A stretch of 17,014 bases of DNA from an uncultured archaeon (lineage in GTDB: Archaea > Iainarchaeota > Iainarchaeia > Iainarchaeales > CSSED10-239): assembly GCA_964468895.1 (NCBI GenBank), contig CAYXWT010000005.1, forward strand, positions 1 through 17,014, given 5' to 3'. The notes under the pieces are model-generated. The model had not been told where the DNA came from. It was given only the letters and a program-made list of their open reading frames with translations, and searched no databases. The translations under genes were made by a program, and so were the position numbers. Positions within the stretch are counted from its first letter, which is position 1. Each line of letters starts with the position of its first letter. Below are positions 1 through 17,007 of this stretch, piece after piece.

Positions 1-503
1 TTGAGGATTACGTATTACCGCGGCGGCTGGCACGTATATTGCCCTCCTCTTATTCGCGTAGCGTTCTAGACTATACAAAAGCCTGTTTTTGCAGGCACTT
101 GGAATCGCATTATCACGGTTTCCCGCATTGTAAATGTTTCGTAACTGCTGCACCCCGTAGGGCTAGGGACCTTATCTCAGTTCCCTTCTCCGGGCGCTCT
201 CTTTCAAGACCCGTACAGATCTTCGGCTTGGTAGGCAGTTACCCTACCAACAACCTAATCTGACGCAGTCCCATCTTTTTGCATCCTACAAACATGAATG
301 TAAGACCTTTCATATAATAATCATTCCAGATTTATTATACTATTAAGCATTATACTTAGTTTCCCAAGTTTAACTTATCAAAAAGGTAGGTTGACCACGC
401 GTTACTGAGCCGTATGCCAAAACCTCTCATAGTTGAGGCTTTTAGACTTGCATGTCTTAGTCCGATTCCAATAGCAGTATCCACCAGCAGGATCAGCTGG
501 AAT
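1..503 (-). rRNA. rrs: 16S (SSU) rRNA, 5' ~500 nt, archaeal type; gene continues beyond window start
   Basis: The reverse complement of 490-503 reads ATTCCAGCTGATCC..., matching the archaeal SSU 5' end (ATTCCGGTTGATCCTGCC type). The rc of 12-33 reads GTGCCAGCCGCCGCGGTAATAC (universal 515 region) and the rc of 145-160 reads CTACGGGGTGCAGCAG. G+C is clearly higher than in flanking DNA. The exact 5' end is approximate (+/- a few nt). Confidence 0.93.
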
Positions 504-851
504 TGGTATTAAAATGCACACATATATAGTATATGTCATTTATAATATCTTCTAACATCAGACTCAAAATAACTTGAACCCTCATAAAAACAAGAAAAAT
601 CGTTTGTTTTACTAATTCAAAAAAAGTTGAACTAGTATAAACTAATAGGGAACAAAACATTTATAAAGAGATCATCGAAGAGTCTAATATACATATAATA
701 AGCTAGAATTCTTCAAAAATATTTTATAAATTACATTCCAAATATATTATGATTAGAAAAAAATATAAATATATCGTTAATATAAATTTAAGAAATAGAA
801 ATAGAATTTTTTTAAAAATAGATTAAAATTAAATAAAAAAGAAAAAAAGAT

Positions 852-983
852 TTAAGAAGCAGCTTTCTTTCTTAAATACTTTCTTTGTCTCTTTTTCTCT
901 CTCATCTTCTTCTTTTTCCATTTCCAACGCTGTCTAGCCTTGGTTTTTTTGAATCTACTTGAATCTTTTTTTCTAGTACCCAT
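852..983 (-). CDS. rpl41e: ribosomal protein L41e-like, 43 aa, extremely basic (below ORF-track size cut-off)
   Basis: The minus-strand ATG at 983-981 and TAA at 854-852 give MGTRKKDSSRFKKTKARQRWKWKKKKMREKKRQRKYLRKKAAS. The RWKWKKKKMR-KKRQRK core matches the K/R-W-K/R-KKR-M-R...KRKRRK signature of eukaryotic/archaeal L41e. The gene sits between a tRNA and the 16S gene on the same strand. Confidence 0.55.
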   Translation of the reverse strand: MGTRKKDSSRFKKTKARQRWKWKKKKMREKKRQRKYLRKKAAS

Positions 984-1014
984 TTTAAATTTCACCTAAC
1001 AAATATTATTGCTA

Positions 1015-1088
1015 TGCTCCGAACGGGATTCGAACCCGTGTTATCGGCTTGAAAGGCCAAAGTGATTACCGGGCTACACTACCGGAGC
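1015..1088 (-). tRNA. tRNA-Glu (anticodon UUC)
   Basis: The rc reads GCTCCGGTAGTGTAGCCCGGTAATCACTTTGGCCTTTCAAGCCGATAACACGGGTTCGAATCCCGTTCGGAGCA. It folds by hand into a cloverleaf with a 7-bp acceptor stem (one G-U), a 5-bp anticodon stem TTGGC/GCCGA, the loop CT-TTC-AA and a T-arm ACGGG-TTCGAAT-CCCGT. The discriminator is A and no CCA is encoded. Confidence 0.9.
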
Positions 1089-1255
1089 ATGTAAATAACC
1101 TATTACTTTCTTCCAAAAATAATTTAACATCTGATTTCAGTTTATTAATTATTTAAAAAATAATTATAAAATATAAATAGATTATAAATAATAAAGGTAA
1201 GTAAACATTTATAAATATATTTTTTCAGAATATTAATAATATATTTGAGAAAAAA

Positions 1256-6397: not shown

Positions 6398-7237
6398 TTA
6401 AAAAAAACGATGAGAATTATTAAGCCAAGCATCAAAAATATATAATTTTCCTTTTTTTAAATCAATAAATAGGTTATCTAGTGTTATATCATCTATATAA
6501 TCGTAAACATCTAATTTATACTTACCTTTAAGAACATCTAATTTCTCATTAACTTGTTTTTGAAGATTTAAACACAGATTTTCAAAATCTTTCGATACAA
6601 AAATTTGATTTTTATAAACTATTTTACCATTATCTTTAATAAATAATTGAGCAACATTATCTAAACGTTTATAATCATAAACTATAAAGCTTTGGTTTGT
6701 TTTTTTATTACAAATACAACAATGAACAGGTACAACATTTAATCCAAGATCTTTTAATATATTTTGAGCAATAGATTCTCTAAAACCATCTCTACCAAAA
6801 TCATATGCAGAATTAATCTTTCCATTAACTTCTTTCACAAAATACTTATGTAGAACCTCTCCAAATCTAACTTGTTCAACAACAAAAATATTTGTATGAC
6901 TTTGTCCTTGATGAATTTTATTATTTAAACTAGCCATTCTTTTTTTAATTATAAAATTAGTACCATTTAAATTTAAGATATATTTATTTGATCCAAACTT
7001 AGGATTACAAAGATTAAATATCTCTTTAAAAAGTAATTTATGATCTAAATAAAAACTTCTGGAATTCTTTGTATATCCAAGTTCCAAGTTTTTAAATTTT
7101 TTAAAAATGAATCTATTATTATTACGATTAATTTCTTCTTTTTTAAAATTAGTTATAAAATTTCTTAATGTTACAGATTTTAAAGATTTTTCTAAGCTTC
7201 TTTTTCTTTTTTTAAACTTAGTTAATATCTTGTGCAC
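6398..7237 (-). CDS. hypothetical protein; possible minimal protein-kinase-like fold (Bud32/RIO/Kdo-kinase-like), start uncertain
   Basis: The ORF is open from 7288, but that codon is TTG and lies inside tRNA-Gly. The first ATG is only at codon 118, and GTG at 7237-7235 follows an AGGT. By eye I see FIIKKR (beta3 Lys?), RESIAQNILKDLGLNVVPV, IDDITLDNLFID (D....N catalytic loop?) and KLYIFDA (DFG-like). The protein ends 10 aa later. No confident family assignment. Confidence 0.45.
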   Translation of the reverse strand: MHKILTKFKKRKRSLEKSLKSVTLRNFITNFKKEEINRNNNRFIFKKFKNLELGYTKNSRSFYLDHKLLFKEIFNLCNPKFGSNKYILNLNGTNFIIKKRMASLNNKIHQGQSHTNIFVVEQVRFGEVLHKYFVKEVNGKINSAYDFGRDGFRESIAQNILKDLGLNVVPVHCCICNKKTNQSFIVYDYKRLDNVAQLFIKDNGKIVYKNQIFVSKDFENLCLNLQKQVNEKLDVLKGKYKLDVYDYIDDITLDNLFIDLKKGKLYIFDAWLNNSHRFF

Positions 7238-7283
7238 TGAAAACAACCTATTTGAGAAATAATGTAATAAATTAAATACAAAG

Positions 7284-7356
7284 TGCAACTACCGGGACTC
7301 GAACCCGGGTCCTGAGCTTGGAAGGCTCGCATACTAAACCACTATACTATAGTTGC
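7284..7356 (-). tRNA. tRNA-Gly (anticodon UCC)
   Basis: The rc reads GCAACTATAGTATAGTGGTTTAGTATGCGAGCCTTCCAAGCTCAGGACCCGGGTTCGAGTCCCGGTAGTTGCA. The acceptor stem GCAACTA/TAGTTGC is perfect, the anticodon loop is CT-TCC-AA and the T-arm is CCGGG-TTCGAGT-CCCGG. No CCA is encoded. Confidence 0.9.
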
Positions 7357-9524: not shown

Positions 9525-10433
9525 TTATTTGGTATAAAACTTATAAGCAATAATTTTATATAAAAGCTTTGCCAAAGTAAAACTTTCAGAAAAATAATTG
9601 TTTTTATCTCCTTTTGGTGCAAATTCAACCAAATCTATACCAATAACGTCTTTATTTTTAAAGATTTCTTTTAATAAATCATTAACTTCATACCAATTTA
9701 AACCACCAGGTTCAGGTGTACCAGTACATTTAATTATAGAAGTATCAAAAACATCTACATCAAAAGAAATAAATACTTTAGAAGGTAACTTTTTTAAAAA
9801 TTTTTTAAGATTATAATTTTTAGATTTAATAATGTCTTCAGATTTTATAATAGATATATTATTAGCAGAACTAGTATTAGATTTTAGATATTCAAATTCT
9901 TCTAAAGACTGAGATCTAACTCCTAAAATCAGGCATTTATGATTTAAAGATACTTTTCTTGTAACACAAGCATGAGGCCAACTATCTTTATCTTCAAAAT
10001 ATTCTCTTAAATCACTATGTGCATCAAAAATAATAACACCAAATTCATCAGTAGAATTCTCTAAAGAATTAACTGTACTTTGAGTTATAGAATGATCTCC
10101 ACCTATAAAAATTGGTAACTTTTCATTTAAATTTAAATTTTGAATTTTATTTGTAATATCTACAATTGCTTTATTATGATTTTTATATTTAGAATTAATT
10201 TCTTTTTCAAGAAATATACCTTGTTCGTAAGGTTCAACTTCTAAATCTAAATCAAAATATTCTAATTCTTTAGAAGCATTAACTATTTCTTTATAACCAT
10301 TAATAGTACCAGAACTACTACTCATATTTGATTCATAATTAATAGGTACAATTACTACTTTTGAATTTTCTTTTAAAGAATATTCAAGTGGTAAATTCAT
10401 AAATCTACTTTTTTCTTTTTTTTTAGAATTCAT
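9525..10433 (-). CDS. speB: agmatinase / ureohydrolase (arginase family)
   Basis: Motifs are GGDHSIT, IIFDAHSDLR, SFDVDVFD....GTPEPGGL and IDLVEFAP, the Mn-binding signatures of arginase/agmatinase. The agmatinase assignment is favoured by the neighbouring decarboxylase (inference). Confidence 0.85.
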   Translation of the reverse strand: MNSKKKEKSRFMNLPLEYSLKENSKVVIVPINYESNMSSSSGTINGYKEIVNASKELEYFDLDLEVEPYEQGIFLEKEINSKYKNHNKAIVDITNKIQNLNLNEKLPIFIGGDHSITQSTVNSLENSTDEFGVIIFDAHSDLREYFEDKDSWPHACVTRKVSLNHKCLILGVRSQSLEEFEYLKSNTSSANNISIIKSEDIIKSKNYNLKKFLKKLPSKVFISFDVDVFDTSIIKCTGTPEPGGLNWYEVNDLLKEIFKNKDVIGIDLVEFAPKGDKNNYFSESFTLAKLLYKIIAYKFYTK

Positions 10434-10441
10434 AATTAATC

Positions 10442-11812
10442 TTATTTAAATTTATTAACAATAGAATTAAAAGAACTAATATTTTTACTAAAATTAAGAT
10501 ATTTAACATCCTCTTTTTTAATAGTAATTTTAGAAGATTTAATTAAGTTTATTTTATCTAAATTTTTAAGAATATAGTCTTCATTTACTTTTTTATTATT
10601 TATTAAAGCATATTTAAAATATTTAACAAAATCACTATGTAAATAGAAACCAAATTCGAAAACATTAATTCCTGCAGGGACTGTAATAATTTTATTAGAA
10701 GTTGTAACTACAGAAACAAAAGCTTCATTTTTTAGAGAATTATTTTTATTTTTAAAATGTTTTATAACTCTAATTAATTTTTTATCATGGCTAGATAAAT
10801 AGTTTTCATATTTATATTTAAAATGAGATGAAAGACCAAACTCTGCATTTTCATGCATTTCTGTGGTTCTAATTTGAACTTCAACATTATAATTTTCAAT
10901 AACAACATTTAAATGTAGAGATCTATAATTATTACTTTTAGGATTTCTAATGAAATTCTTTTCTCTTATAACTTCAAACTTACTTTTTATTAATTCATAA
11001 CATCTATAACAATCTTTTCTATTTTCACAAATAAATCTAACTGCATATATATCTTTAATTAAATTTAAACTTTTTTCTTTTTTTTTAATATAAATATTCT
11101 TAAAAATACTACTTATAGATTTATATCTATAATTAACAAATAATATTTTAGGTTTATATTTATATGGAACATTATCTAAAATAATATCTTTAAAATATTC
11201 TAATTTTTTTTTAGGATATATTTTATTTACTTGTTTTATAAGAGTTTTATATTTCTGTGGGAATTTAGTTTTTATAAATAAATCTTGGATTTTATTTCTA
11301 AAATCATACATACCTAATTGCACACACAAAGGAATTATAGACAATTCTACAGTTTTGAGAAATGTGTTTTTAAACTTGACATCTTTTATTTTATTAAAAT
11401 ATTTAAAAATAACCATAACTTCAGAAAATAAAATTATTACAGACTCAATTCTTGAAAAAGAATTTAGGATATAATTTTTATACTTTTTAGCATTAAAATT
11501 AGAAGAATATAAAATTTCTGGAAAATTAAAATAATAATAATCCTTAGAAATATCTAATATTTGATTATCAATATTTAGTTTGTTTATATTTTCAACAGAT
11601 AAATACTTATAAATATCATAAATCATTGTAGAAAAGATTACATTATTATTATATGATAGCGTATTTTCTGAAATCTCTAATATATACTTAACAAGTGAAA
11701 TTTTAGAAAATATTTTTTTAGAATTATACACTTTTTTACAAATATTATAATATTTTTTAAAATCAGACAAGTATTTTTTTTTTAATAAAAGATATTTTGG
11801 ATAACTTTTCAT
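10442..11812 (-). CDS. RelA/SpoT homologue (RSH): degenerate HD-like N-domain + (p)ppGpp-synthetase-type nucleotidyltransferase domain + C-terminal TGS domain
   Basis: The synthetase core YRYKSISSIFKNI...IKDIYAVRFIC...CY....NFIRNPKSNNYRSLHLNV...VEVQIRTTEMHENAEFGLSSHFKYK matches GRxK...D..A.R...CY...DYI..PK.NGYxSLH...EvQIRT..MH..AE.G.AaHW.YK. The upstream segment VIILFSEVMVIFKYF...ELSIIPLCVQLGMYDFRNKIQDL parallels IKLADRLHNMR...EIYAPLAHRLG...K.ELEDL. At the expected HD position the sequence is TMIYDIYKY. The TGS-like C-terminus reads VTTSNKIITVPAGINVFEFGFYLHSDFVKYFKYALINNKKV. Confidence 0.8.
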   Translation of the reverse strand: MKSYPKYLLLKKKYLSDFKKYYNICKKVYNSKKIFSKISLVKYILEISENTLSYNNNVIFSTMIYDIYKYLSVENINKLNIDNQILDISKDYYYFNFPEILYSSNFNAKKYKNYILNSFSRIESVIILFSEVMVIFKYFNKIKDVKFKNTFLKTVELSIIPLCVQLGMYDFRNKIQDLFIKTKFPQKYKTLIKQVNKIYPKKKLEYFKDIILDNVPYKYKPKILFVNYRYKSISSIFKNIYIKKKEKSLNLIKDIYAVRFICENRKDCYRCYELIKSKFEVIREKNFIRNPKSNNYRSLHLNVVIENYNVEVQIRTTEMHENAEFGLSSHFKYKYENYLSSHDKKLIRVIKHFKNKNNSLKNEAFVSVVTTSNKIITVPAGINVFEFGFYLHSDFVKYFKYALINNKKVNEDYILKNLDKINLIKSSKITIKKEDVKYLNFSKNISSFNSIVNKFK

Positions 11813-11844
11813 AGATAATCTTTATTTTTACTAAAAGCTAGAAA

Positions 11845-12900
11845 TTATTTTATAATTTCTATTTTTGGTCTTTCTAAATTAAAAAGATCTGTATAATAAA
11901 TATAAGAACCAGCATTTAAAAAAACAATTTGGTCTTTTATTTTAGGAACTTTATTAAAATAAACTCTATATCTAAATATATCTTCAGAAGCAGGAGTTGC
12001 ACCTTTAATAACATAAGGATTTCCATTAACTTCTAAACTTTCTCCTTCAACAAGTAATTTTACATTTGTTACTATTGTATCCATTGAACAATTAAACACA
12101 GAAGCATCAATAAAAAGATTATTATCAACAATATTAACTATATTTGCTATTAATTTACCACTTGGAGCAGCTATTGCTCTACCAGGTTCACAAATTAATT
12201 TTATATTTTTAGAATTTACAAATTCTTTAAGTTCTTTTATTTTTTCATAAACAGAATCTATTGTACTTGGATTAGTATTTTTATATTCTACTGGTATACC
12301 TCCTCCAATATCTAGAGAAGATATAATTTCCCAGCTTTTGGAGTTTATAGATTGTTCAAGTTCTCTAACTAAAGACCATTCTGCAAGATTTTGTGTTTTT
12401 CTATGAAAATGTATTCCTAATTGATTTATATTTAAATTATCTTTTAATTTAAGTAATAATTCATTTACTTTTGAAGAATAAAATCCAAATACAAAATATC
12501 TGCCAGTTTGAACAGTATATTCTTTAAGTCTCATTCTTAAAAAAAGATCTATTTTATGATTATTGCTTTTGCAATAATCAAGAATAAAATCTAAATCTTT
12601 AATGTTATCTACAATAAATTTATTAATGTTTTTTTCAAAAATTAAATTTAATTCTTCATTTTCTGGAGAATGAAGCATATACAAAATATTAGAATAATCA
12701 AAATCATTTATATTTTCAAAATGTTTTAATTCATTTAAATGATGTATTAAAAACGAACTATTAGTACTTTGTCCAAGTATATCAACTAAATAAGGATTAG
12801 ACTTAACACTATAGCAAACAACATCACACAAAGAATTAATTTTATTATATTGTTCTATAGCTTTTGATTTACTAATTTGAAATTTAGCTCTTGAAATCAT
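11845..12900 (-). CDS. PLP-dependent Orn/Lys/Arg/DAP decarboxylase family (fold type III), short form; possibly arginine decarboxylase
   Basis: 351 aa. CYSVKSNPYLVDIL is the PLP-Lys motif Y-x-x-K-x-N. Other motifs are GIHFHRKTQ, LDIGGGIPV (Gly-rich phosphate loop), CEPGRAIAAPSG (EPGR) and FLNAGSY. Substrate is inferred only from the operon context with agmatinase. Confidence 0.78.
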   Translation of the reverse strand: MISRAKFQISKSKAIEQYNKINSLCDVVCYSVKSNPYLVDILGQSTNSSFLIHHLNELKHFENINDFDYSNILYMLHSPENEELNLIFEKNINKFIVDNIKDLDFILDYCKSNNHKIDLFLRMRLKEYTVQTGRYFVFGFYSSKVNELLLKLKDNLNINQLGIHFHRKTQNLAEWSLVRELEQSINSKSWEIISSLDIGGGIPVEYKNTNPSTIDSVYEKIKELKEFVNSKNIKLICEPGRAIAAPSGKLIANIVNIVDNNLFIDASVFNCSMDTIVTNVKLLVEGESLEVNGNPYVIKGATPASEDIFRYRVYFNKVPKIKDQIVFLNAGSYIYYTDLFNLERPKIEIIK

Positions 12901-13194: not shown

Positions 13195-16038
13195 ATGTAT
13201 AAGAATATAATTATTAAAGGTGCTAGAGAACACAATTTAAAAAACATTAATATAGAAATACCTAAATATAAGTTTATAGTTATTACTGGTGTATCTGGAA
13301 GTGGTAAATCTACTTTAGCTTTTGACACTATATATGCTGAAGGACAAAGAAGATACGTAGAAAGCCTTTCTTCTTATGCAAGACAATTTCTTGGAATGAT
13401 GAAAAAACCAGATGTTGATAGTATAGAAGGATTAAGTCCAGCTATTTCTATTGAACAAAAAACAACTTCTAAAAATCCAAGATCTACTGTTGGAACTGTT
13501 ACTGAAGTTTATGATTATCTTCGTTTATTATTTGCAAGAATTGGAGTACCTTATTGTCCAAAACATAATATAAAAATAGAATCTATGTCTTCACAAAAAA
13601 TTAGTGAAAATATAATTTCAGAATTTAATAATCAAGATATAATTATACTTGCACCTATTATTCAACAAAAAAAAGGAACTTATGAAAAGCTTATTGAAGA
13701 TATTAATAAAGAAGGTTATAGTAGAGTTAGAATCAATAACAAAATTATTAAAAGTGAAGAAAAAATAGAACTTGAAAGATATAAAAAACATGATATTGAA
13801 ATTGTAATAGATAGAATAAAAATTAATAAAGATAATAAAAGTAGATTAGTTGAAGATATAGAAAATGCAAATCAAAAATCAAAAACTGGACTTATAAAAA
13901 TATTATTTAAAAATAAAACTAATAAAGAAGAAGAAAAAATATATTCTACAAAAATGTCCTGTCCAGTTTGTGGATTAGCTTATGAAGAATTACAACCAAG
14001 AATGTTTTCTTTTAATAGTCCTTTTGGTGCTTGTGAAAATTGTAGTGGACTTGGTTTCAAAATGGAATTTGATATAAATTTAATAATTCCTAATAAAGAT
14101 ATTGGAATACTTGATGGTGCTATTAAAGTTTATAGAAATGTAATGGATGGTTGGAGAACTCAACATCTTCTAAATGTAGCCAAAGCAAATGGTTTTGATG
14201 GTTTTACAACTATAAATAAATTAACAAAAGAACAATATAACACTTTAATGTATGGTTCTGATCAAAAAATAAAATTTACTTTAAAAAAAAGAGATGGTTC
14301 TGGCTCTTTTATGCACACAGGAAATTGGGAAGGAGTCATTCCTCAACTGGAAAGATTATATAAACAAACAGAATCAGATTATAGAAGAAAAGAACTTACT
14401 AAATTTATGAAAATTCTTCCTTGTAATCAATGTAATGGTAAAAGATTAAAAGAAAAGATTTTATCTGTAAAAATTAAAAATAAAAATATTGTAGATATTA
14501 CAGATTTATCTATTAAAGAAACTATTTCTTTTTTTAAAAATTTAAAATTAAATAAAAAAGAACAAGAAATAGCAAAACATATTTTAAAAGAAATAAATTC
14601 AAGACTTGAATTTTTAGATAAAGTTGGACTTAGTTATTTAACTCTTTCAAGAAGTAGTGGAACTCTTTCTGGTGGAGAAGCACAAAGAATAAGATTAGCT
14701 ACTAATCTTGGAACTAATCTTACTGGAGTATTATATGTTCTTGATGAACCTTCTATTGGACTTCATCAAAGAGATAATCAAAAATTAATAGATACTTTAA
14801 AAAGATTAAGAGATTTAGGTAATACTTTAATAGTAGTAGAACATGATGAAGATACTATTAGACAAGCAGATCATGTTATTGATATTGGACCTGGTGCTGG
14901 TATTCATGGTGGAGAAATAGTTGCAGAAGGAACTCCTAAGCAAATAGAAGAAAATAAAGAATCACTAACTGGAAAATATCTTTCTGGTGTTCATGAAATT
15001 GAACTTCCTAAAAAAAGAAGAACTTTTAATAATTATATTGAACTAAATGGTGCTTGTGAAAATAATTTGAAAAAATTAAATGTAAAAATACCAATTGGTG
15101 TTTTAAATATTATAACTGGTGTAAGTGGAAGTGGAAAATCCACTTTAATTAATGACACATTATACAAAGAAGCTATGAACAAAATCTATAAATCTAAATT
15201 TACTAGTGGAAAACATAAAAATTTAGATTTAAAAAATATAGATAAAGTAATAGCTATCGATCAATCTCCAATAGGCAGAACTCCAAGAAGTAATCCTGCT
15301 ACTTACACTAAACTATTTGATGAAATTAGAATAATTTTTGCAAATACTTTAGAAGCTAAAACTAGAGGTTATAAACCAGGAAGATTTTCTTTTAATGTAA
15401 AAGAAGGGAGATGTCATGCTTGTAATGGTGATGGACAAATAAAAATAGAAATGAATTTTCTTCCAGATGTTTATGTAGATTGTGAAGAATGTAAAGGAAC
15501 TAGGTATAATAGTGAAACACTTGAAGTTAAATATAAAAATAAAAATATAGCTCAAGTATTAGATATGAGTGTAGAAGAAGCATATTCTTTTTTTAAAAAT
15601 ATACCTAAAATTAAAAGAAAATTACAAACATTAATGGATGTTGGTTTAAGTTATATTAAATTAGGTCAAAGCTCAGTAACGCTTTCAGGTGGAGAAGCAC
15701 AAAGAATAAAAATCACTAAAGAACTGTCTAAAATAGGTAGTGGAAATACATTATATATACTTGATGAACCAACTACTGGTCTTCATTTTCATGATGTAAA
15801 AAAACTAATAGAAGTACTAAATAAATTAGTAGATAAAGGTAATACAGTAATTGTAATTGAACATAATCTTGATGTTATAAAATGTGCTGATTATATAATA
15901 GATCTTGGTCCAGAAGGCGGAGATAATGGTGGAAAAATAATAGCAATAGGTACTCCTGAAGAAATCATAAAAAATAAAAACTCTTTTACAGGTATTTATC
16001 TTAAAAAATATATAAATTCAGAAAAAGAAAAGAAATAA
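13195..16038 (+). CDS. uvrA: excinuclease ABC subunit A (UvrA), full length
   Basis: 947 aa. It has two ABC modules, with Walker A GVSGSGKST twice, LSGGEAQRI twice, and LYVLDEPSIGLH / LYILDEPTTGLH. Zn-finger Cys pairs are present (CPVCG...CENCSG, CNQCNG, CHACNG...CEECKG). The N-terminus reads IKGAREHNLKNI. Confidence 0.97.
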   Translation: MYKNIIIKGAREHNLKNINIEIPKYKFIVITGVSGSGKSTLAFDTIYAEGQRRYVESLSSYARQFLGMMKKPDVDSIEGLSPAISIEQKTTSKNPRSTVGTVTEVYDYLRLLFARIGVPYCPKHNIKIESMSSQKISENIISEFNNQDIIILAPIIQQKKGTYEKLIEDINKEGYSRVRINNKIIKSEEKIELERYKKHDIEIVIDRIKINKDNKSRLVEDIENANQKSKTGLIKILFKNKTNKEEEKIYSTKMSCPVCGLAYEELQPRMFSFNSPFGACENCSGLGFKMEFDINLIIPNKDIGILDGAIKVYRNVMDGWRTQHLLNVAKANGFDGFTTINKLTKEQYNTLMYGSDQKIKFTLKKRDGSGSFMHTGNWEGVIPQLERLYKQTESDYRRKELTKFMKILPCNQCNGKRLKEKILSVKIKNKNIVDITDLSIKETISFFKNLKLNKKEQEIAKHILKEINSRLEFLDKVGLSYLTLSRSSGTLSGGEAQRIRLATNLGTNLTGVLYVLDEPSIGLHQRDNQKLIDTLKRLRDLGNTLIVVEHDEDTIRQADHVIDIGPGAGIHGGEIVAEGTPKQIEENKESLTGKYLSGVHEIELPKKRRTFNNYIELNGACENNLKKLNVKIPIGVLNIITGVSGSGKSTLINDTLYKEAMNKIYKSKFTSGKHKNLDLKNIDKVIAIDQSPIGRTPRSNPATYTKLFDEIRIIFANTLEAKTRGYKPGRFSFNVKEGRCHACNGDGQIKIEMNFLPDVYVDCEECKGTRYNSETLEVKYKNKNIAQVLDMSVEEAYSFFKNIPKIKRKLQTLMDVGLSYIKLGQSSVTLSGGEAQRIKITKELSKIGSGNTLYILDEPTTGLHFHDVKKLIEVLNKLVDKGNTVIVIEHNLDVIKCADYIIDLGPEGGDNGGKIIAIGTPEEIIKNKNSFTGIYLKKYINSEKEKK

Positions 16039-16062
16039 AAAACATATAAATTAAGAACTCTT

Positions 16063-17007
16063 ATGGAATATATAAAAATTAATGATATTGTTTTTGGAGA
16101 ACACATAATAAAAGAACCTGTACTTTGTGAACTAATAAAAACAAAAGCAATGAAAAGATTAAAAAATATAAGTAGTAATGGAATACCTCCAAAATATTAT
16201 TATAAAAACCAATTTAGTAGATTAGAACATTCTTTAGGTTGTTTAATTTTAAGCGAACTATTTAATGCATCTTTAGAAGAAAAAATTGCTTGTCTTCTTC
16301 ACGATGTTAATCATACTGCTTTTTCTCATATTTATGATGGTATTTTAAACAATATAGAAGAAGACTATCAAGATAAAACATTTTTTGATTTTTTAAATAA
16401 TACAACAGAAATAAAAGATATATTTCAAAAATATAAAATAGACATAAACAATTTCAAAAACTTTGAAAAATTCAGATTATTAGATAGACCAAAACCACAA
16501 ACTTGTATTGATAGATTAGATTATTGTTTAAGAGAATTTTACAATATTAAAAGAAATAAAGATTATATAAAAAACATTTTATTTAATATAAAAATAACAG
16601 ACAATAAAGAAATAATATTTAAAAATAAAAGTGCTGCAAAAGATTTTGCTGAAGCTTATTTATATTTATTCCTAAATAGATGGAATGAACCTAGAAATAT
16701 AGAAAAGCAAATATTTTTTGCAGATATACTCACAAATGCAATTTCTAAAAATATAATAAGTCATGATGATTTTAAAAAAGATGATATATATGTATTAGAC
16801 AAAATAGAAAATTGTAAAGACAAGAACATAGAAAACCAACTTAAAGAATTAAAAGAAAACACATTTGTTATTAAAAACCCAAAACAGAAAAAACTAAGAC
16901 ATGTAAATCCAAAATATCTTGATGAAAATAATAATGTTTTAGATCTAATGTCTACAGATTATAATTATAAAAATAGAATTGATACTATTTTGAAAGAATA
17001 TGAATAA
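16063..17007 (+). CDS. HD-domain metal-dependent phosphohydrolase (COG1078/dNTPase-like N-terminal region)
   Basis: 314 aa. RLEHSLGC...LLHDVNHTAFSH is the H...HD...H signature of the HD superfamily. It starts 24 nt after uvrA on the same strand. Confidence 0.75.
   Translation: MEYIKINDIVFGEHIIKEPVLCELIKTKAMKRLKNISSNGIPPKYYYKNQFSRLEHSLGCLILSELFNASLEEKIACLLHDVNHTAFSHIYDGILNNIEEDYQDKTFFDFLNNTTEIKDIFQKYKIDINNFKNFEKFRLLDRPKPQTCIDRLDYCLREFYNIKRNKDYIKNILFNIKITDNKEIIFKNKSAAKDFAEAYLYLFLNRWNEPRNIEKQIFFADILTNAISKNIISHDDFKKDDIYVLDKIENCKDKNIENQLKELKENTFVIKNPKQKKLRHVNPKYLDENNNVLDLMSTDYNYKNRIDTILKEYE

What the first reader, a model, noticed from the sequence alone, without database searches (positions are those of the whole stretch)
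10442..11812. RelA/SpoT-type alarmone synthetase homologue in an archaeal genomic context, with truncated pseudo-HD / SYNTH / TGS architecture
The contig is archaeal by 16S, FEN1, L40e and L41e, and its composition is uniform throughout. Yet this 456-aa ORF carries a near-complete (p)ppGpp synthetase signature: R-x-K, DIYAVRF, NYRSLH and EVQIRTxEMHxxAE. These include the residues aligning by eye to the catalytic Asp and the EvQIRT Glu of bacterial Rel enzymes.

The N-terminal region keeps the helical scaffold of the hydrolase domain, but the HD dyad position reads YD and the following ED reads KY. That suggests a RelA-like inactive hydrolase. The protein ends right after a TGS domain, so it lacks the helical/ZFD/ACT(RRM) ribosome-docking half of long RSHs.

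Established knowledge holds that RSH enzymes and (p)ppGpp signalling are essentially bacterial or plastid, and rare and patchy in Archaea. A TGS-bearing synthetase-only form in a reduced archaeon is unusual. It might sense uncharged tRNA without bacterial-type ribosome contacts, or use a different acceptor (pppApp, or tRNA 3' pyrophosphorylation as in toxSAS enzymes).
Basis: partly seen in the sequence, partly recalled or inferred. Interest (0 to 1): 0.72.

Follow-up and report, generated by a model that had tools for sequence, protein, structure and literature searches.

The report
Truncated alarmone synthetase in DPANN archaeon
This gene in a very AT-rich, small-celled (DPANN) archaeon encodes a stripped-down relative of the bacterial stress-signal enzyme RelA whose making site looks intact and whose breaking site is dead; such genes have already been noted in these archaea, so it is a divergent variant, not a first.

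Summary
ORF 10442-11812 (-), 456 aa, matches Pfam RelA_SpoT (E 1.4e-27) and TGS (E 5.7e-7).

The N-terminal 165-200 residues give no HD_4 sequence hit. Two AlphaFold models, one built from the 4-member clade alone, still superpose on Rel HD+SYNTH crystal structures (TM 0.71-0.76). The hydrolase signature HHDEDDN reads YYDKYEI. The protein stops 31 residues after TGS, and agmatinase starts 8 nt later.

The contig is archaeal (16S, FEN1) and most likely Iainarchaeota/Diapherotrites. Gene order recurs in two independent assemblies, GC is uniform, and dN/dS (0.33) matches the neighbours. It is therefore neither a mis-join nor a recent transfer.

The novelty claim is overstated:
- Li et al. 2021 reported RelA/SpoT in 69% of Diapherotrites and 42% of Woesearchaeota genomes.
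- I found named Diapherotrites and Woesearchaeota RSHs of 606-630 aa, many with degenerate HD motifs.
- Bacterial RshC has the same truncation after TGS.

What is distinctive is a very isolated clade: 4 sequences, at most about 30% identical to any other RSH. It combines a dead HD with loss of the ribosome-docking half. The likely function is a monofunctional (p)ppGpp synthetase, which is untested.

The parts
10442..11812 (-). Complete RSH gene, 456 aa plus TAA stop at 10442-10444: pseudo-HD, SYNTH, TGS and a short helical tail
   Evidence: ORF. Pfam hits. TIGR00691 scores 136.5 bits over aa 107-443. The PDB profile search gives B. subtilis Rel 6yxa at E 3e-39. AlphaFold model has pLDDT 85.3 and pTM 0.81.
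11318..11812 (-). Pseudo-hydrolase (HD-fold) domain, aa 1-165. The catalytic signature HHDEDDN is replaced by Y43, Y65, D66, K69, Y70, E131, I135
   Evidence: No HD_4 hit. hhalign against HD is only weak, E 0.013, but in register. Both models align to Rel HD+SYNTH crystal structures over 320-355 columns with TM 0.6-0.76. Conservation is 71/57/33% within the clade and dN/dS is 0.36.
11168..11317 (-). Helical connector between pseudo-HD and SYNTH (central helix bundle region), aa 166-215
   Evidence: Aligned to Rel/RelA in HMM alignments starting at aa 107. L166 and G167 are invariant. Helices 145-165, 169-183, 185-198 and 202-214 have pLDDT above 90.
10793..11167 (-). Alarmone synthetase (SYNTH, RelA_SpoT) domain, aa 216-340, with R229, K231, D254, R259, K292, N294, Y296, H300, E311, Q313, R315
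   Evidence: Pfam PF04607 E 1.4e-27. These are invariant columns in the 85-sequence alignment and in the 4-member clade. pLDDT is 85-96. dN/dS is 0.27.
10721..10792 (-). Low-confidence linker with one helix, aa 341-364
   Evidence: pLDDT is below 50 at 329-345 and 352-361. It is the least conserved segment within the clade, at 67/35/35% identity.
10529..10720 (-). TGS domain, aa 365-428. H392 aligns with E. coli RelA H432 and B. subtilis Rel H420
   Evidence: Pfam PF02824 at 29.9 bits. H392 is invariant in 85 sequences. The role of H432/H420 is from PMC7797070. dN/dS of 0.18 is the lowest in the gene.
10445..10528 (-). C-terminal tail, aa 429-456. Two short helices correspond to the first part of the helical (AH) domain, and the protein ends here
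   Evidence: Aligned to B. subtilis Rel up to residue 485 and to RelA up to residue 499. Helices 433-438 and 442-455 are in the model. The stop and the next gene's start are 8 nt apart.
11845..12900 (-). Upstream co-directional gene: PLP-dependent Orn/Arg/DAP-type decarboxylase, 351 aa, 32 nt before the RSH start
   Evidence: Pfam Orn_Arg_deC_N E 4.7e-18. NCBIfam lysA, nspC and speA hits are all below cut-off. The same order occurs in L001 and L002.
9525..10433 (-). Downstream co-directional gene: agmatinase/arginase family, 302 aa, 8 nt after the RSH stop
   Evidence: Pfam Arginase E 2.5e-48. TIGR01230 agmatinase scores 162.8 bits against a cut-off of 174.3. The same order occurs in L001 and L002 but not in L003 or L004.

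Best explanation
The gene encodes a strongly diverged, shortened member of the long RelA/SpoT-homologue (RSH) family, resident in a DPANN archaeon most like Iainarchaeota/Diapherotrites. It most likely descends from the 606-635 aa HD-SYNTH-TGS-(RIS)-ACT type of RSH that is common in these archaea and was originally acquired from Bacteria.

Shown here:
- The synthetase domain keeps every residue that binds ATP, Mg2+ and the guanine-nucleotide acceptor in Rel/RelA.
- The N-terminal domain keeps the HD fold but has lost the metal-binding and catalytic residues.
- The TGS domain is kept and everything after the first ~30 residues of the helical domain is absent.
- The gene evolves under purifying selection like its neighbours.

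Inferred:
- The protein is a monofunctional alarmone synthetase that transfers pyrophosphate from ATP to the 3'-OH of GDP/GTP to make (p)ppGpp.
- The pseudo-HD serves as a structural or allosteric partner of the synthetase, as in RelA.
- The TGS domain, with H392 equivalent to RelA H432, acts as the cis-regulatory module, probably reading the 3' CCA end of uncharged tRNA or simply gating the synthetase.
- Lacking the ZFD and RRM/ACT domains, it cannot dock on a ribosome the way RelA does. Control would then be mainly off the ribosome and through expression, here apparently co-transcribed with a decarboxylase and an agmatinase.
- Removal of the product must rely on an unlinked hydrolase that is not in this window.
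For: - Domain hits: RelA_SpoT E 1.4e-27 and TGS E 5.7e-7. TIGR00691 scores 136.5 bits over aa 107-443. PDB profile hits are B. subtilis Rel 3e-39 and E. coli RelA 2e-35.
- Invariant synthetase residues and H392 across 85 RSHs and within the clade.
- Hydrolase signature YYDKYEI against HHDEDDN.
- HD fold recovered with a deep alignment (pLDDT 85; TM 0.72-0.76 to 7oiw and 8acu) and with the clade-only alignment (TM 0.71-0.76).
- True truncation, with a length of 456-464 aa conserved in four homologues at 38-74% identity.
- Purifying selection: dN/dS 0.33, against 0.30 and 0.24 for the flanking genes.
- Archaeal host: 16S and FEN1, whose nearest named relatives are Candidatus Iainarchaeum and Diapherotrites.
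- Affinity to archaeal RSHs. In NJ trees the clade (100/100 monophyletic) nests in a 51-71-taxon group with no bacterial RSH of 700 aa or more. That group contains Diapherotrites P0138 and P0456, and P0465, P0134 and P0133, which lie on contigs with RPA/RadA, Taw1 or Pus10.
- Literature: RSHs are frequent in DPANN (PMC8407392). The role of the TGS histidine is from PMC7797070.
Against: - No enzymatic or in vivo data exist for any archaeal RSH, and (p)ppGpp has not been detected in the archaea tested, Haloferax and Sulfolobus (PMC10249747).
- The window shows no alarmone hydrolase. The nearby HD protein is dNTPase/SAMHD1-like.
- The TGS match is weak, 29.9 bits against 65-80 bits in other DPANN RSHs.
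- Isolated TGS without the helical domain did not bind tRNA stably in B. subtilis Rel.
- D286 of the RxKD motif is N here.
- Placement among archaeal RSHs rests on distance trees of a long branch. Only 55 of 100 bootstraps are free of bacterial long forms among the nearest 15 or more taxa.
- The polyamine-gene linkage is seen only in the two closest relatives.
Confidence: 0.6

Rival explanations
1. The enzyme uses a non-canonical acceptor. It would make (pp)pApp, or pyrophosphorylate the 3' CCA end of tRNA as toxic small alarmone synthetases do, with the TGS domain presenting the tRNA end to the active site.
For: TGS domains contact tRNA CCA ends and H392 is conserved. D286 of the RxKD motif is changed to N. 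There is a weak PADLOC hit to a candidate defence protein, PDC-S33, at 49.7 bits over the SYNTH core. No hydrolase partner is visible in the window.
Against: The acceptor-side residues K292, N294, Y296 and H300 are identical to those of (p)ppGpp-making long RSHs. The best sequence and fold matches are Rel, RelA and SpoT, followed by RelP/RelQ, and no toxSAS or pppApp synthetase appears among the PDB hits at E<=0.01. There is no bicistronic toxin-antitoxin layout, since the neighbours are a decarboxylase and an agmatinase.
Confidence: 0.12
2. The protein is a catalytically silent remnant, kept for a binding or scaffolding role such as tRNA or nucleotide binding, with no alarmone made.
For: The clade sits on a very long branch (distance about 1.6-1.7 to all other RSHs). 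The HD is already dead and the regulatory half is lost. The TIGR00691 score is far below the curated cut-off, 136 against 499. The host is a reduced, AT-rich genome where decay is common.
Against: All ten or more synthetase active-site residues are invariant in four homologues that are only 38-74% identical overall. SYNTH is the best conserved domain (82/61/39%) and has dN/dS 0.27. This is not expected if catalysis were lost.
Confidence: 0.1
3. The gene is bacterial or CPR DNA: a contaminant, a chimeric join or a very recent horizontal transfer into the archaeal contig.
For: RSHs are ancestrally bacterial. The contig also carries bacterial-type UvrA. The best GTDB genome hits are Chloroflexota and Patescibacteria.
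Against: Those hits are only 22-30% identical. Among 1.84 billion representative proteins, nothing outside the 4-member clade scores above 196 bits, against 689-773 bits within it. The decarboxylase-RSH-agmatinase-membrane protein-HIT and UvrA-HD order is reproduced in two other assemblies from different samples at 74% protein identity. GC is uniform at about 0.17-0.22 across the gene and its flanks. dN/dS and divergence match the neighbours. Distant clade members lie on low-GC contigs too, one next to an archaeo-eukaryotic-type GTPase.
Confidence: 0.03

Closest known systems
DPANN (Diapherotrites/Woesearchaeota-type) long RSHs of about 606-635 aa, e.g. P0138 and P0456 (NCBI: Candidatus Diapherotrites archaeon) and P0127 (Candidatus Woesearchaeota archaeon); noted as a class in Li et al. 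2021 (PMC8407392)
   Same: The host superphylum is the same. Both have the N-terminal HD-type domain, SYNTH and TGS, and the hydrolase motif is often degenerate (HHE..S in the Diapherotrites proteins; intact in only 29 of 84 mid-length forms). The window clade nests among them in NJ trees.
   Different: Those proteins still match Pfam HD_4 and usually carry RelA_RIS and/or ACT_4 at the C-terminus. Three of three checked loci sit next to a TIM gene. The window protein has no detectable HD_4 signal and no RIS/ACT. It is at most about 25-30% identical to them and sits between polyamine genes.
E. coli RelA, a monofunctional [hS] long RSH (PDB 5iqr, 5kpv)
   Same: Both have an inactive pseudo-hydrolase domain followed by an active-type SYNTH and a TGS domain with the CCA-stacking histidine (H432 = H392). 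The profile E-value is 2e-35 and Foldseek gives 1.4e-19.
   Different: RelA has the full helical, ZFD and RRM/ACT half that docks on the ribosome, and this protein stops about 30 residues after TGS. RelA carries EFDD where this protein has REKN (the functional reading of that motif is from my own knowledge of Sajish et al.). Identity is about 19-20%. The window protein closely resembles in extent the artificial RelA 1-455 fragment, known from my own knowledge as constitutively active.
RshC[HS] of Bacilli (Atkinson et al. 2011, PMC3153485)
   Same: [quoted passage not shown] This is the same C-terminal truncation point.
   Different: RshC is classed as [HS], with both catalytic domains intact, and is bacterial. 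Here the hydrolase site is dead and the host is archaeal.
B. subtilis / S. equisimilis Rel, a bifunctional long RSH (PDB 6yxa, 8acu, 1vj7)
   Same: This is the best overall sequence and fold match: 6yxa at E 3e-39 over aa 107-459 and Foldseek 1e-19, and 8acu_B at TM 0.76 over 329 columns. The RxK(D/N) motif is of the Rel type.
   Different: Rel has an active Mn2+-dependent hydrolase (HHDEDDN) and the full CTD. Here the hydrolase signature is destroyed and the CTD is reduced to TGS.
Small alarmone synthetases RelP/RelQ (PDB 6ewz, 5ded)
   Same: They share the SYNTH fold and catalytic residues (E 1e-10 to 1e-14) and act as ribosome-independent synthetases.
   Different: SASs are single-domain tetramers of about 200-240 aa with no HD-fold domain and no TGS. 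They cover only aa 204-345 of this protein.

Membership tests
RSH superfamily (RelA/SpoT homologues) | Significant match to the synthetase (RelA_SpoT, PF04607) and/or HD_4 domain | tested here: met
   PF04607 scores 96.6 bits against a cut-off of 27, E 1.4e-27.
RSH superfamily (RelA/SpoT homologues) | Synthetase active-site residues (RelSeq numbering, from my own knowledge: R241, K243, D264, R269, K304, Y308, H312, E323, Q325, R327; Rel D264 is also named in PMC7797070) | tested here: met
   R229, K231, D254, R259, K292, Y296, H300, E311, Q313 and R315 are invariant columns in 85 sequences and in the clade.
Long RSH (Rel/RelA/SpoT type) | N-terminal HD-type domain preceding SYNTH | tested here: inconclusive
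   The sequence test failed: no HD_4 hit at E<=1 and hhalign probability 3%. The fold test was met: both AlphaFold models superpose on HD+SYNTH crystal structures over 320-355 columns with TM up to 0.76. HMM alignments also cover the distal HD helices from aa 107.
Long RSH (Rel/RelA/SpoT type) | TGS domain after SYNTH | tested here: met
   PF02824 scores 29.9 bits against a cut-off of 22.2. H392 aligns with RelA H432.
Long RSH (Rel/RelA/SpoT type) | Helical (AH), ZFD/RIS (CC) and RRM/ACT domains | tested here: not met
   There are no PF19296, PF28438 or PF13291 hits. The protein ends at aa 456 with the next gene 8 nt away. tblastn with RIS/ACT tails finds nothing in the window.
Long RSH (Rel/RelA/SpoT type) | NCBIfam TIGR00691 spoT_relA curated cut-off | tested here: not met
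   The score is 136.5 bits against a cut-off of 499.2.
Bifunctional Rel/SpoT [HS] | Hydrolase metal-binding and catalytic residues H..HD..ED..D..N | tested here: not met
   The signature is YYDKYEI in the window protein and YYN(K/R/E)(Y/F)EI in the three relatives.
RelA [hS] subgroup | Inactive HD plus active SYNTH | tested here: met
RelA [hS] subgroup | Beta/gamma-proteobacterial clade, EXDD motif and full CTD | tested here: not met
   The motif reads REKN. The CTD is absent. The clade groups with archaeal mid-length RSHs and not with long bacterial forms.
RshC-like truncated long RSH | Truncation within the helical domain with TGS retained | tested here: met
   The alignment to B. subtilis Rel ends at residue 485, inside the helical region. 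The definition is from PMC3153485.
RshC-like truncated long RSH | Phylogenetic membership in the Bacilli RshC subgroup with an intact hydrolase | not tested
   No RshC reference sequence was available. The hydrolase is not intact, so strict membership is unlikely.
Small alarmone synthetase (SAS) / toxSAS | Single SYNTH domain; for toxSAS, a bicistronic operon with an antitoxin | tested here: not met
   There are an additional ~215 aa N-terminal domain and a TGS domain. The neighbours are a decarboxylase and an agmatinase. PADLOC gives only a weak PDC-S33 hit.
DPANN-type archaeal RSH group | Grouping with RSHs from Diapherotrites/Woesearchaeota contigs to the exclusion of bacterial long RSHs | tested here: inconclusive
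   The NJ point estimate nests the clade in a 51-71-taxon group free of proteins of 700 aa or more. That group includes P0138, P0456, P0465, P0134 and P0133. Only 55 of 100 bootstraps keep the nearest 15 or more taxa free of long bacterial forms. No ML tree was possible.

The most novel reading that the evidence does not exclude
This clade is a working, minimal, ribosome-independent stringent factor of DPANN archaea. The TGS domain alone senses uncharged tRNA, or another starvation cue, and switches on (p)ppGpp synthesis. The alarmone is wired to arginine-to-putrescine metabolism through the decarboxylase-RSH-agmatinase operon. That would establish genuine alarmone signalling in Archaea with a sensing mode different from bacterial RelA.
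Probability: 0.2. Interest if true: 0.7.

Novelty: new variant of a known kind. Interest (0 to 1): 0.4.

Why it matters
Reviews of archaeal second messengers still state that (p)ppGpp has not been found in Archaea and that its enzymes are rare there (PMC10249747). Metagenome-derived DPANN genomes, however, carry RSH genes often (PMC8407392). None has been tested.

This 456-aa form is the smallest long-RSH derivative seen here that keeps an intact-looking synthetase and TGS domain, and it has shed the parts that dock on bacterial ribosomes. If it is active, it would be a compact test case for two questions. One is whether alarmone signalling works in an archaeal cell. The other is what a TGS domain can sense without the ribosome-binding half.

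If it is only another diverged copy, the value is limited to annotation. It should be named a monofunctional RelA/SpoT-family synthetase, not a bifunctional synthetase/hydrolase as JGI pipelines label its relatives.

Tried and rejected
- Chimeric assembly or contamination was rejected. Synteny is the same in L001 and L002 from two other samples, GC is uniform, and divergence matches the neighbours.
- Recent bacterial or CPR transfer was rejected. No relative above about 30% identity appears in 185,579 GTDB species genomes. Nothing between 196 and 689 bits appears among 1.84 billion representatives.
- A small alarmone hydrolase in the window was not found. The HD protein at 16063-17007 matches dNTPase/SAMHD1-type HD proteins, not SpoT/Mesh1. 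tblastn with a Rel HD domain hits only the RSH gene itself, weakly.
- A split-off RIS/ACT gene, as seen in L036, is absent from the window.
- A conserved functional link to polyamine genes was rejected as a family trait. It is not conserved in L003 or L004.
- Sequence-only proof of the pseudo-HD by hhalign was too weak (E 0.013, probability 3%), so I relied on structure prediction.
- Names for the nearest neighbours in the tree were sought.
- Defence-system membership was tested. There is only a weak PDC-S33 hit over the SYNTH core.
- Maximum-likelihood phylogeny was not possible with the installed tools. NJ with a Kimura distance and 100 bootstraps was used instead.
Full report

Yes. The minus-strand ORF 10442-11812 encodes 456 aa, and nothing of 60 aa or more lies on the other strand. 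Pfam finds RelA_SpoT (aa 229-337, 96.6 bits, E 1.4e-27) and TGS (aa 367-425, 29.9 bits, E 5.7e-7). It finds no HD_4 even at E<=1. NCBIfam TIGR00691 (spoT_relA) aligns aa 107-443 to profile positions 90-440 of 687 at 136.5 bits, far below its 499-bit cut-off. A profile of the gene and its three relatives hits B. subtilis Rel (6yxa, E 3e-39, aa 107-459 to 120-485) and E. coli RelA (E 2e-35) in the PDB.

In an 85-sequence alignment with bacterial long RSHs, R229, K231, D254, R259, K292, Y296, H300, E311, Q313 and R315 are invariant columns.

**2. The N-terminal domain**

The positions that read H, HD, ED, D, N in active hydrolases (signature HHDEDDN) read Y43, Y65-D66, K69-Y70, E131, I135. The three relatives have YYN(K/R/E)(Y/F)EI, so even D66 is not conserved.

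Sequence evidence that this is an HD domain at all is weak. hhalign of aa 1-165 against a Rel HD alignment gives E 0.013 and probability 3%, though it is in the expected register.

Fold evidence is good. An AlphaFold model from the 85-sequence alignment has pLDDT 85.3 and pTM 0.81, with the N-terminal helices at about 83-95. It matches HD+SYNTH crystal structures over 320-355 columns (8acu_B TM 0.76, 7oiw_A TM 0.72, 1vj7 TM 0.67). A second model used only the four clade sequences, so no bacterial HD information entered the alignment. It has lower confidence (pLDDT 68.6) but gives the same result (7oiw_A 325 of 327 columns, TM 0.76; 1vj7_A TM 0.74).

The domain is as conserved within the clade as the rest of the protein (71/57/33% identity, against 82/61/39% for SYNTH). 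Its dN/dS is 0.36. It is therefore a retained pseudo-hydrolase scaffold.

**3. The C-terminus**

The protein ends 31 residues after TGS. These residues form two short helices that align with the start of the helical domain of Rel/RelA. The TAA stop is followed after 8 nt by the agmatinase ATG in another frame. tblastn with RIS/ACT tails of relatives finds nothing in the window. All four clade members are 456-464 aa.

H392 is invariant and aligns with RelA H432 and Rel H420. That histidine stacks on the 3' CCA end of deacylated tRNA, and its substitution abolishes activation (PMC7797070). The same paper reports that TGS alone does not bind tRNA stably, whereas TGS plus the helical domain does. 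tRNA sensing by this protein is therefore plausible but not assured.

**4. Host and assembly**

The window carries the 5' 487 positions of an archaeal 16S rRNA (411 bits), FEN1, an L40e-like ORF and two tRNAs.

FEN1's nearest named relatives are Candidatus Iainarchaeum/ainarchaeum sp. and Candidatus Diapherotrites archaeon, at 45-55% identity. That lineage is Archaea; Nanobdellati; Candidatus Iainarchaeota.

GC is 17-27% throughout. The order decarboxylase - RSH - agmatinase - membrane protein - HIT, with UvrA and an HD protein on the other side, recurs in two contigs from other samples whose RSH is 74% identical (L001, L002). dN/dS against that orthologue is 0.33 for the RSH, 0.30 for agmatinase, 0.24 for the decarboxylase and 0.16 for UvrA.

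More distant members lie on contigs with 14-29% GC (L003, 38% identity; L004, 54% identity). One is beside a GTPase with MMR_HSR1, YGR210-like_G4 and TGS domains, a family I know as archaeo-eukaryotic. A mis-join or a recent transfer is therefore excluded for practical purposes.

**5. How isolated is it?**

- Among 5.8 billion clusters, only four proteins are close: 100, 74, 54 and 38% identity. The next hits are bacterial long RSHs at about 27%.
- An exhaustive HMM search of 1.84 billion representatives gives 773 and 689 bits for the two clade representatives, then drops to 196 bits.
- No GTDB species genome has a close relative. The best hits are Chloroflexota and Patescibacteria at 22-30%.

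**6. Where does it come from?**

The top non-clade hits are enriched in proteins of 600-650 aa. Named examples are P0127 (Candidatus Woesearchaeota, 616 aa) and P0138 and P0456 (Candidatus Diapherotrites, 608 and 620 aa). Their architecture is HD_4 - RelA_SpoT - TGS - (RIS) - ACT_4.

Three loci of this type are archaeal by context: RPA and RadA in L035, Pus10 in L036 and the wyosine enzyme Taw1 in L037. All three have a divergent TIM gene next to the RSH.

In NJ trees on aa 107-430, the clade is monophyletic in 100 of 100 bootstraps. It nests in a 51-71-taxon group that contains these archaeal proteins and no bacterial form of 700 aa or more. In 55 of 100 bootstraps, the nearest 15 or more taxa contain no long bacterial form. 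This is moderate evidence, limited by the long branch and the method. It suggests the gene is an offshoot of the DPANN RSH lineage that lost its C-terminal domains.

Degenerate hydrolase motifs are common in this lineage. They are intact in 1 of 19 short, 29 of 84 mid-length and 44 of 60 long forms.

**7. What was already known**

- Atkinson et al. 2011 found no long RSHs in Archaea, only a few SAS/SAH. They described bacterial RshC as truncated within the helical domain with TGS kept (PMC3153485).
- Li et al. 2021 reported RelA/SpoT in 69.0% of Diapherotrites, 41.7% of Woesearchaeota, 21.3% of Pacearchaeota and 19.0% of Nanoarchaeota genomes, predicted to have come from Bacteria (PMC8407392).
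- Reviews from 2021-2023 still state that (p)ppGpp has not been detected in Archaea (PMC10249747).
- I found no experimental work on any DPANN RSH.

**8. Mechanism**

Shown:
- an intact-looking synthetase site;
- a dead hydrolase site on a retained HD fold;
- a retained TGS domain with the CCA-stacking histidine;
- absence of the ribosome-docking domains;
- purifying selection.

Inferred:
- The product is (p)ppGpp made from ATP and GDP/GTP, because the acceptor-side residues are those of Rel/RelA and the nearest structures are Rel, RelA and SpoT, followed by RelP/RelQ.
- The pseudo-HD is a structural or allosteric partner, as in RelA.
- TGS is the only regulatory module left.
- Activity is controlled off the ribosome and by expression.
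- The tight spacing (32 nt and 8 nt) suggests co-transcription with a PLP decarboxylase and an agmatinase, a likely arginine-to-putrescine route. This linkage is limited to the two closest species, so it is not a family trait.
- A hydrolase must exist elsewhere. None is in the window.

**9. Verdict**

Its rarity is overstated. This is a new, very divergent and reduced variant of a known enzyme family, in a group of archaea where the family has already been reported. Its function is untested.

Noticed in passing
L035 7235-9881; L036 952-3234; L037 7248-9908: In all three archaeal mid-length RSH loci examined, a triosephosphate isomerase (PF00121) gene lies directly upstream of the RSH and is transcribed divergently. 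This looks like a conserved gene pair in DPANN-type RSH loci, and it is absent from the window.
   Followed up: partly
L036 1795-3678: The RSH is split. A 479-aa HD_4-SYNTH-TGS ORF is followed 76 nt later by a separate 122-aa ORF carrying RelA_RIS + ACT_4. This is either a frameshift or an intermediate on the way to the TGS-terminal short form.
   Followed up: no
L034 395-2443: P0251 (466 aa) is a second, unrelated-looking short form with only RelA_SpoT + TGS on record and a degenerate hydrolase signature (KVQDVDQ). It is the nearest neighbour of the clade in NJ trees and sits next to an HD_3 (PF13023) phosphohydrolase gene.
   Followed up: partly
window 13195-17007; L001 304-8639: Bacterial-type UvrA is followed by a dNTPase/SAMHD1-like HD protein. 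In the related contig the pair continues with UvrC and UvrB, giving a complete UvrABC cluster with an embedded HD protein in an Iainarchaeota-like genome.
   Followed up: partly
window 9525-12900: A PLP-dependent Orn/Arg/DAP-type decarboxylase and an agmatinase flank the RSH with gaps of 32 and 8 nt. This is a probable arginine-to-putrescine operon interrupted by an alarmone synthetase gene. It is conserved only in the 74%-identical relative.
   Followed up: partly
window 6398-7356: A 296-aa ORF with no Pfam match has a TTG start that overlaps tRNA-Gly(UCC) by about 6 nt. The real start is probably further downstream.
   Followed up: no
window 1-1089 and 2660-2809: The 5' 487 positions of an archaeal 16S rRNA run off the window start, with tRNA-Glu(UUC) about 500 nt upstream on the same strand. 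A 49-aa zinc-ribbon ORF resembles ribosomal protein L40e, and a very basic ORF inside 852-995(-) resembles L41e.
   Followed up: partly
window 10849-11152 (aa 221-321 of the RSH): There is a weak PADLOC match (49.7 bits) of the SYNTH core to PDC-S33, a candidate phage-defence protein. It probably reflects only the shared synthetase fold.
   Followed up: no
window, whole: GC is extremely low, 17-27% in protein-coding parts and 34% over the rRNA. Relatives reach 14% GC (L004). This is among the most AT-rich archaeal sequence I would expect.
   Followed up: no
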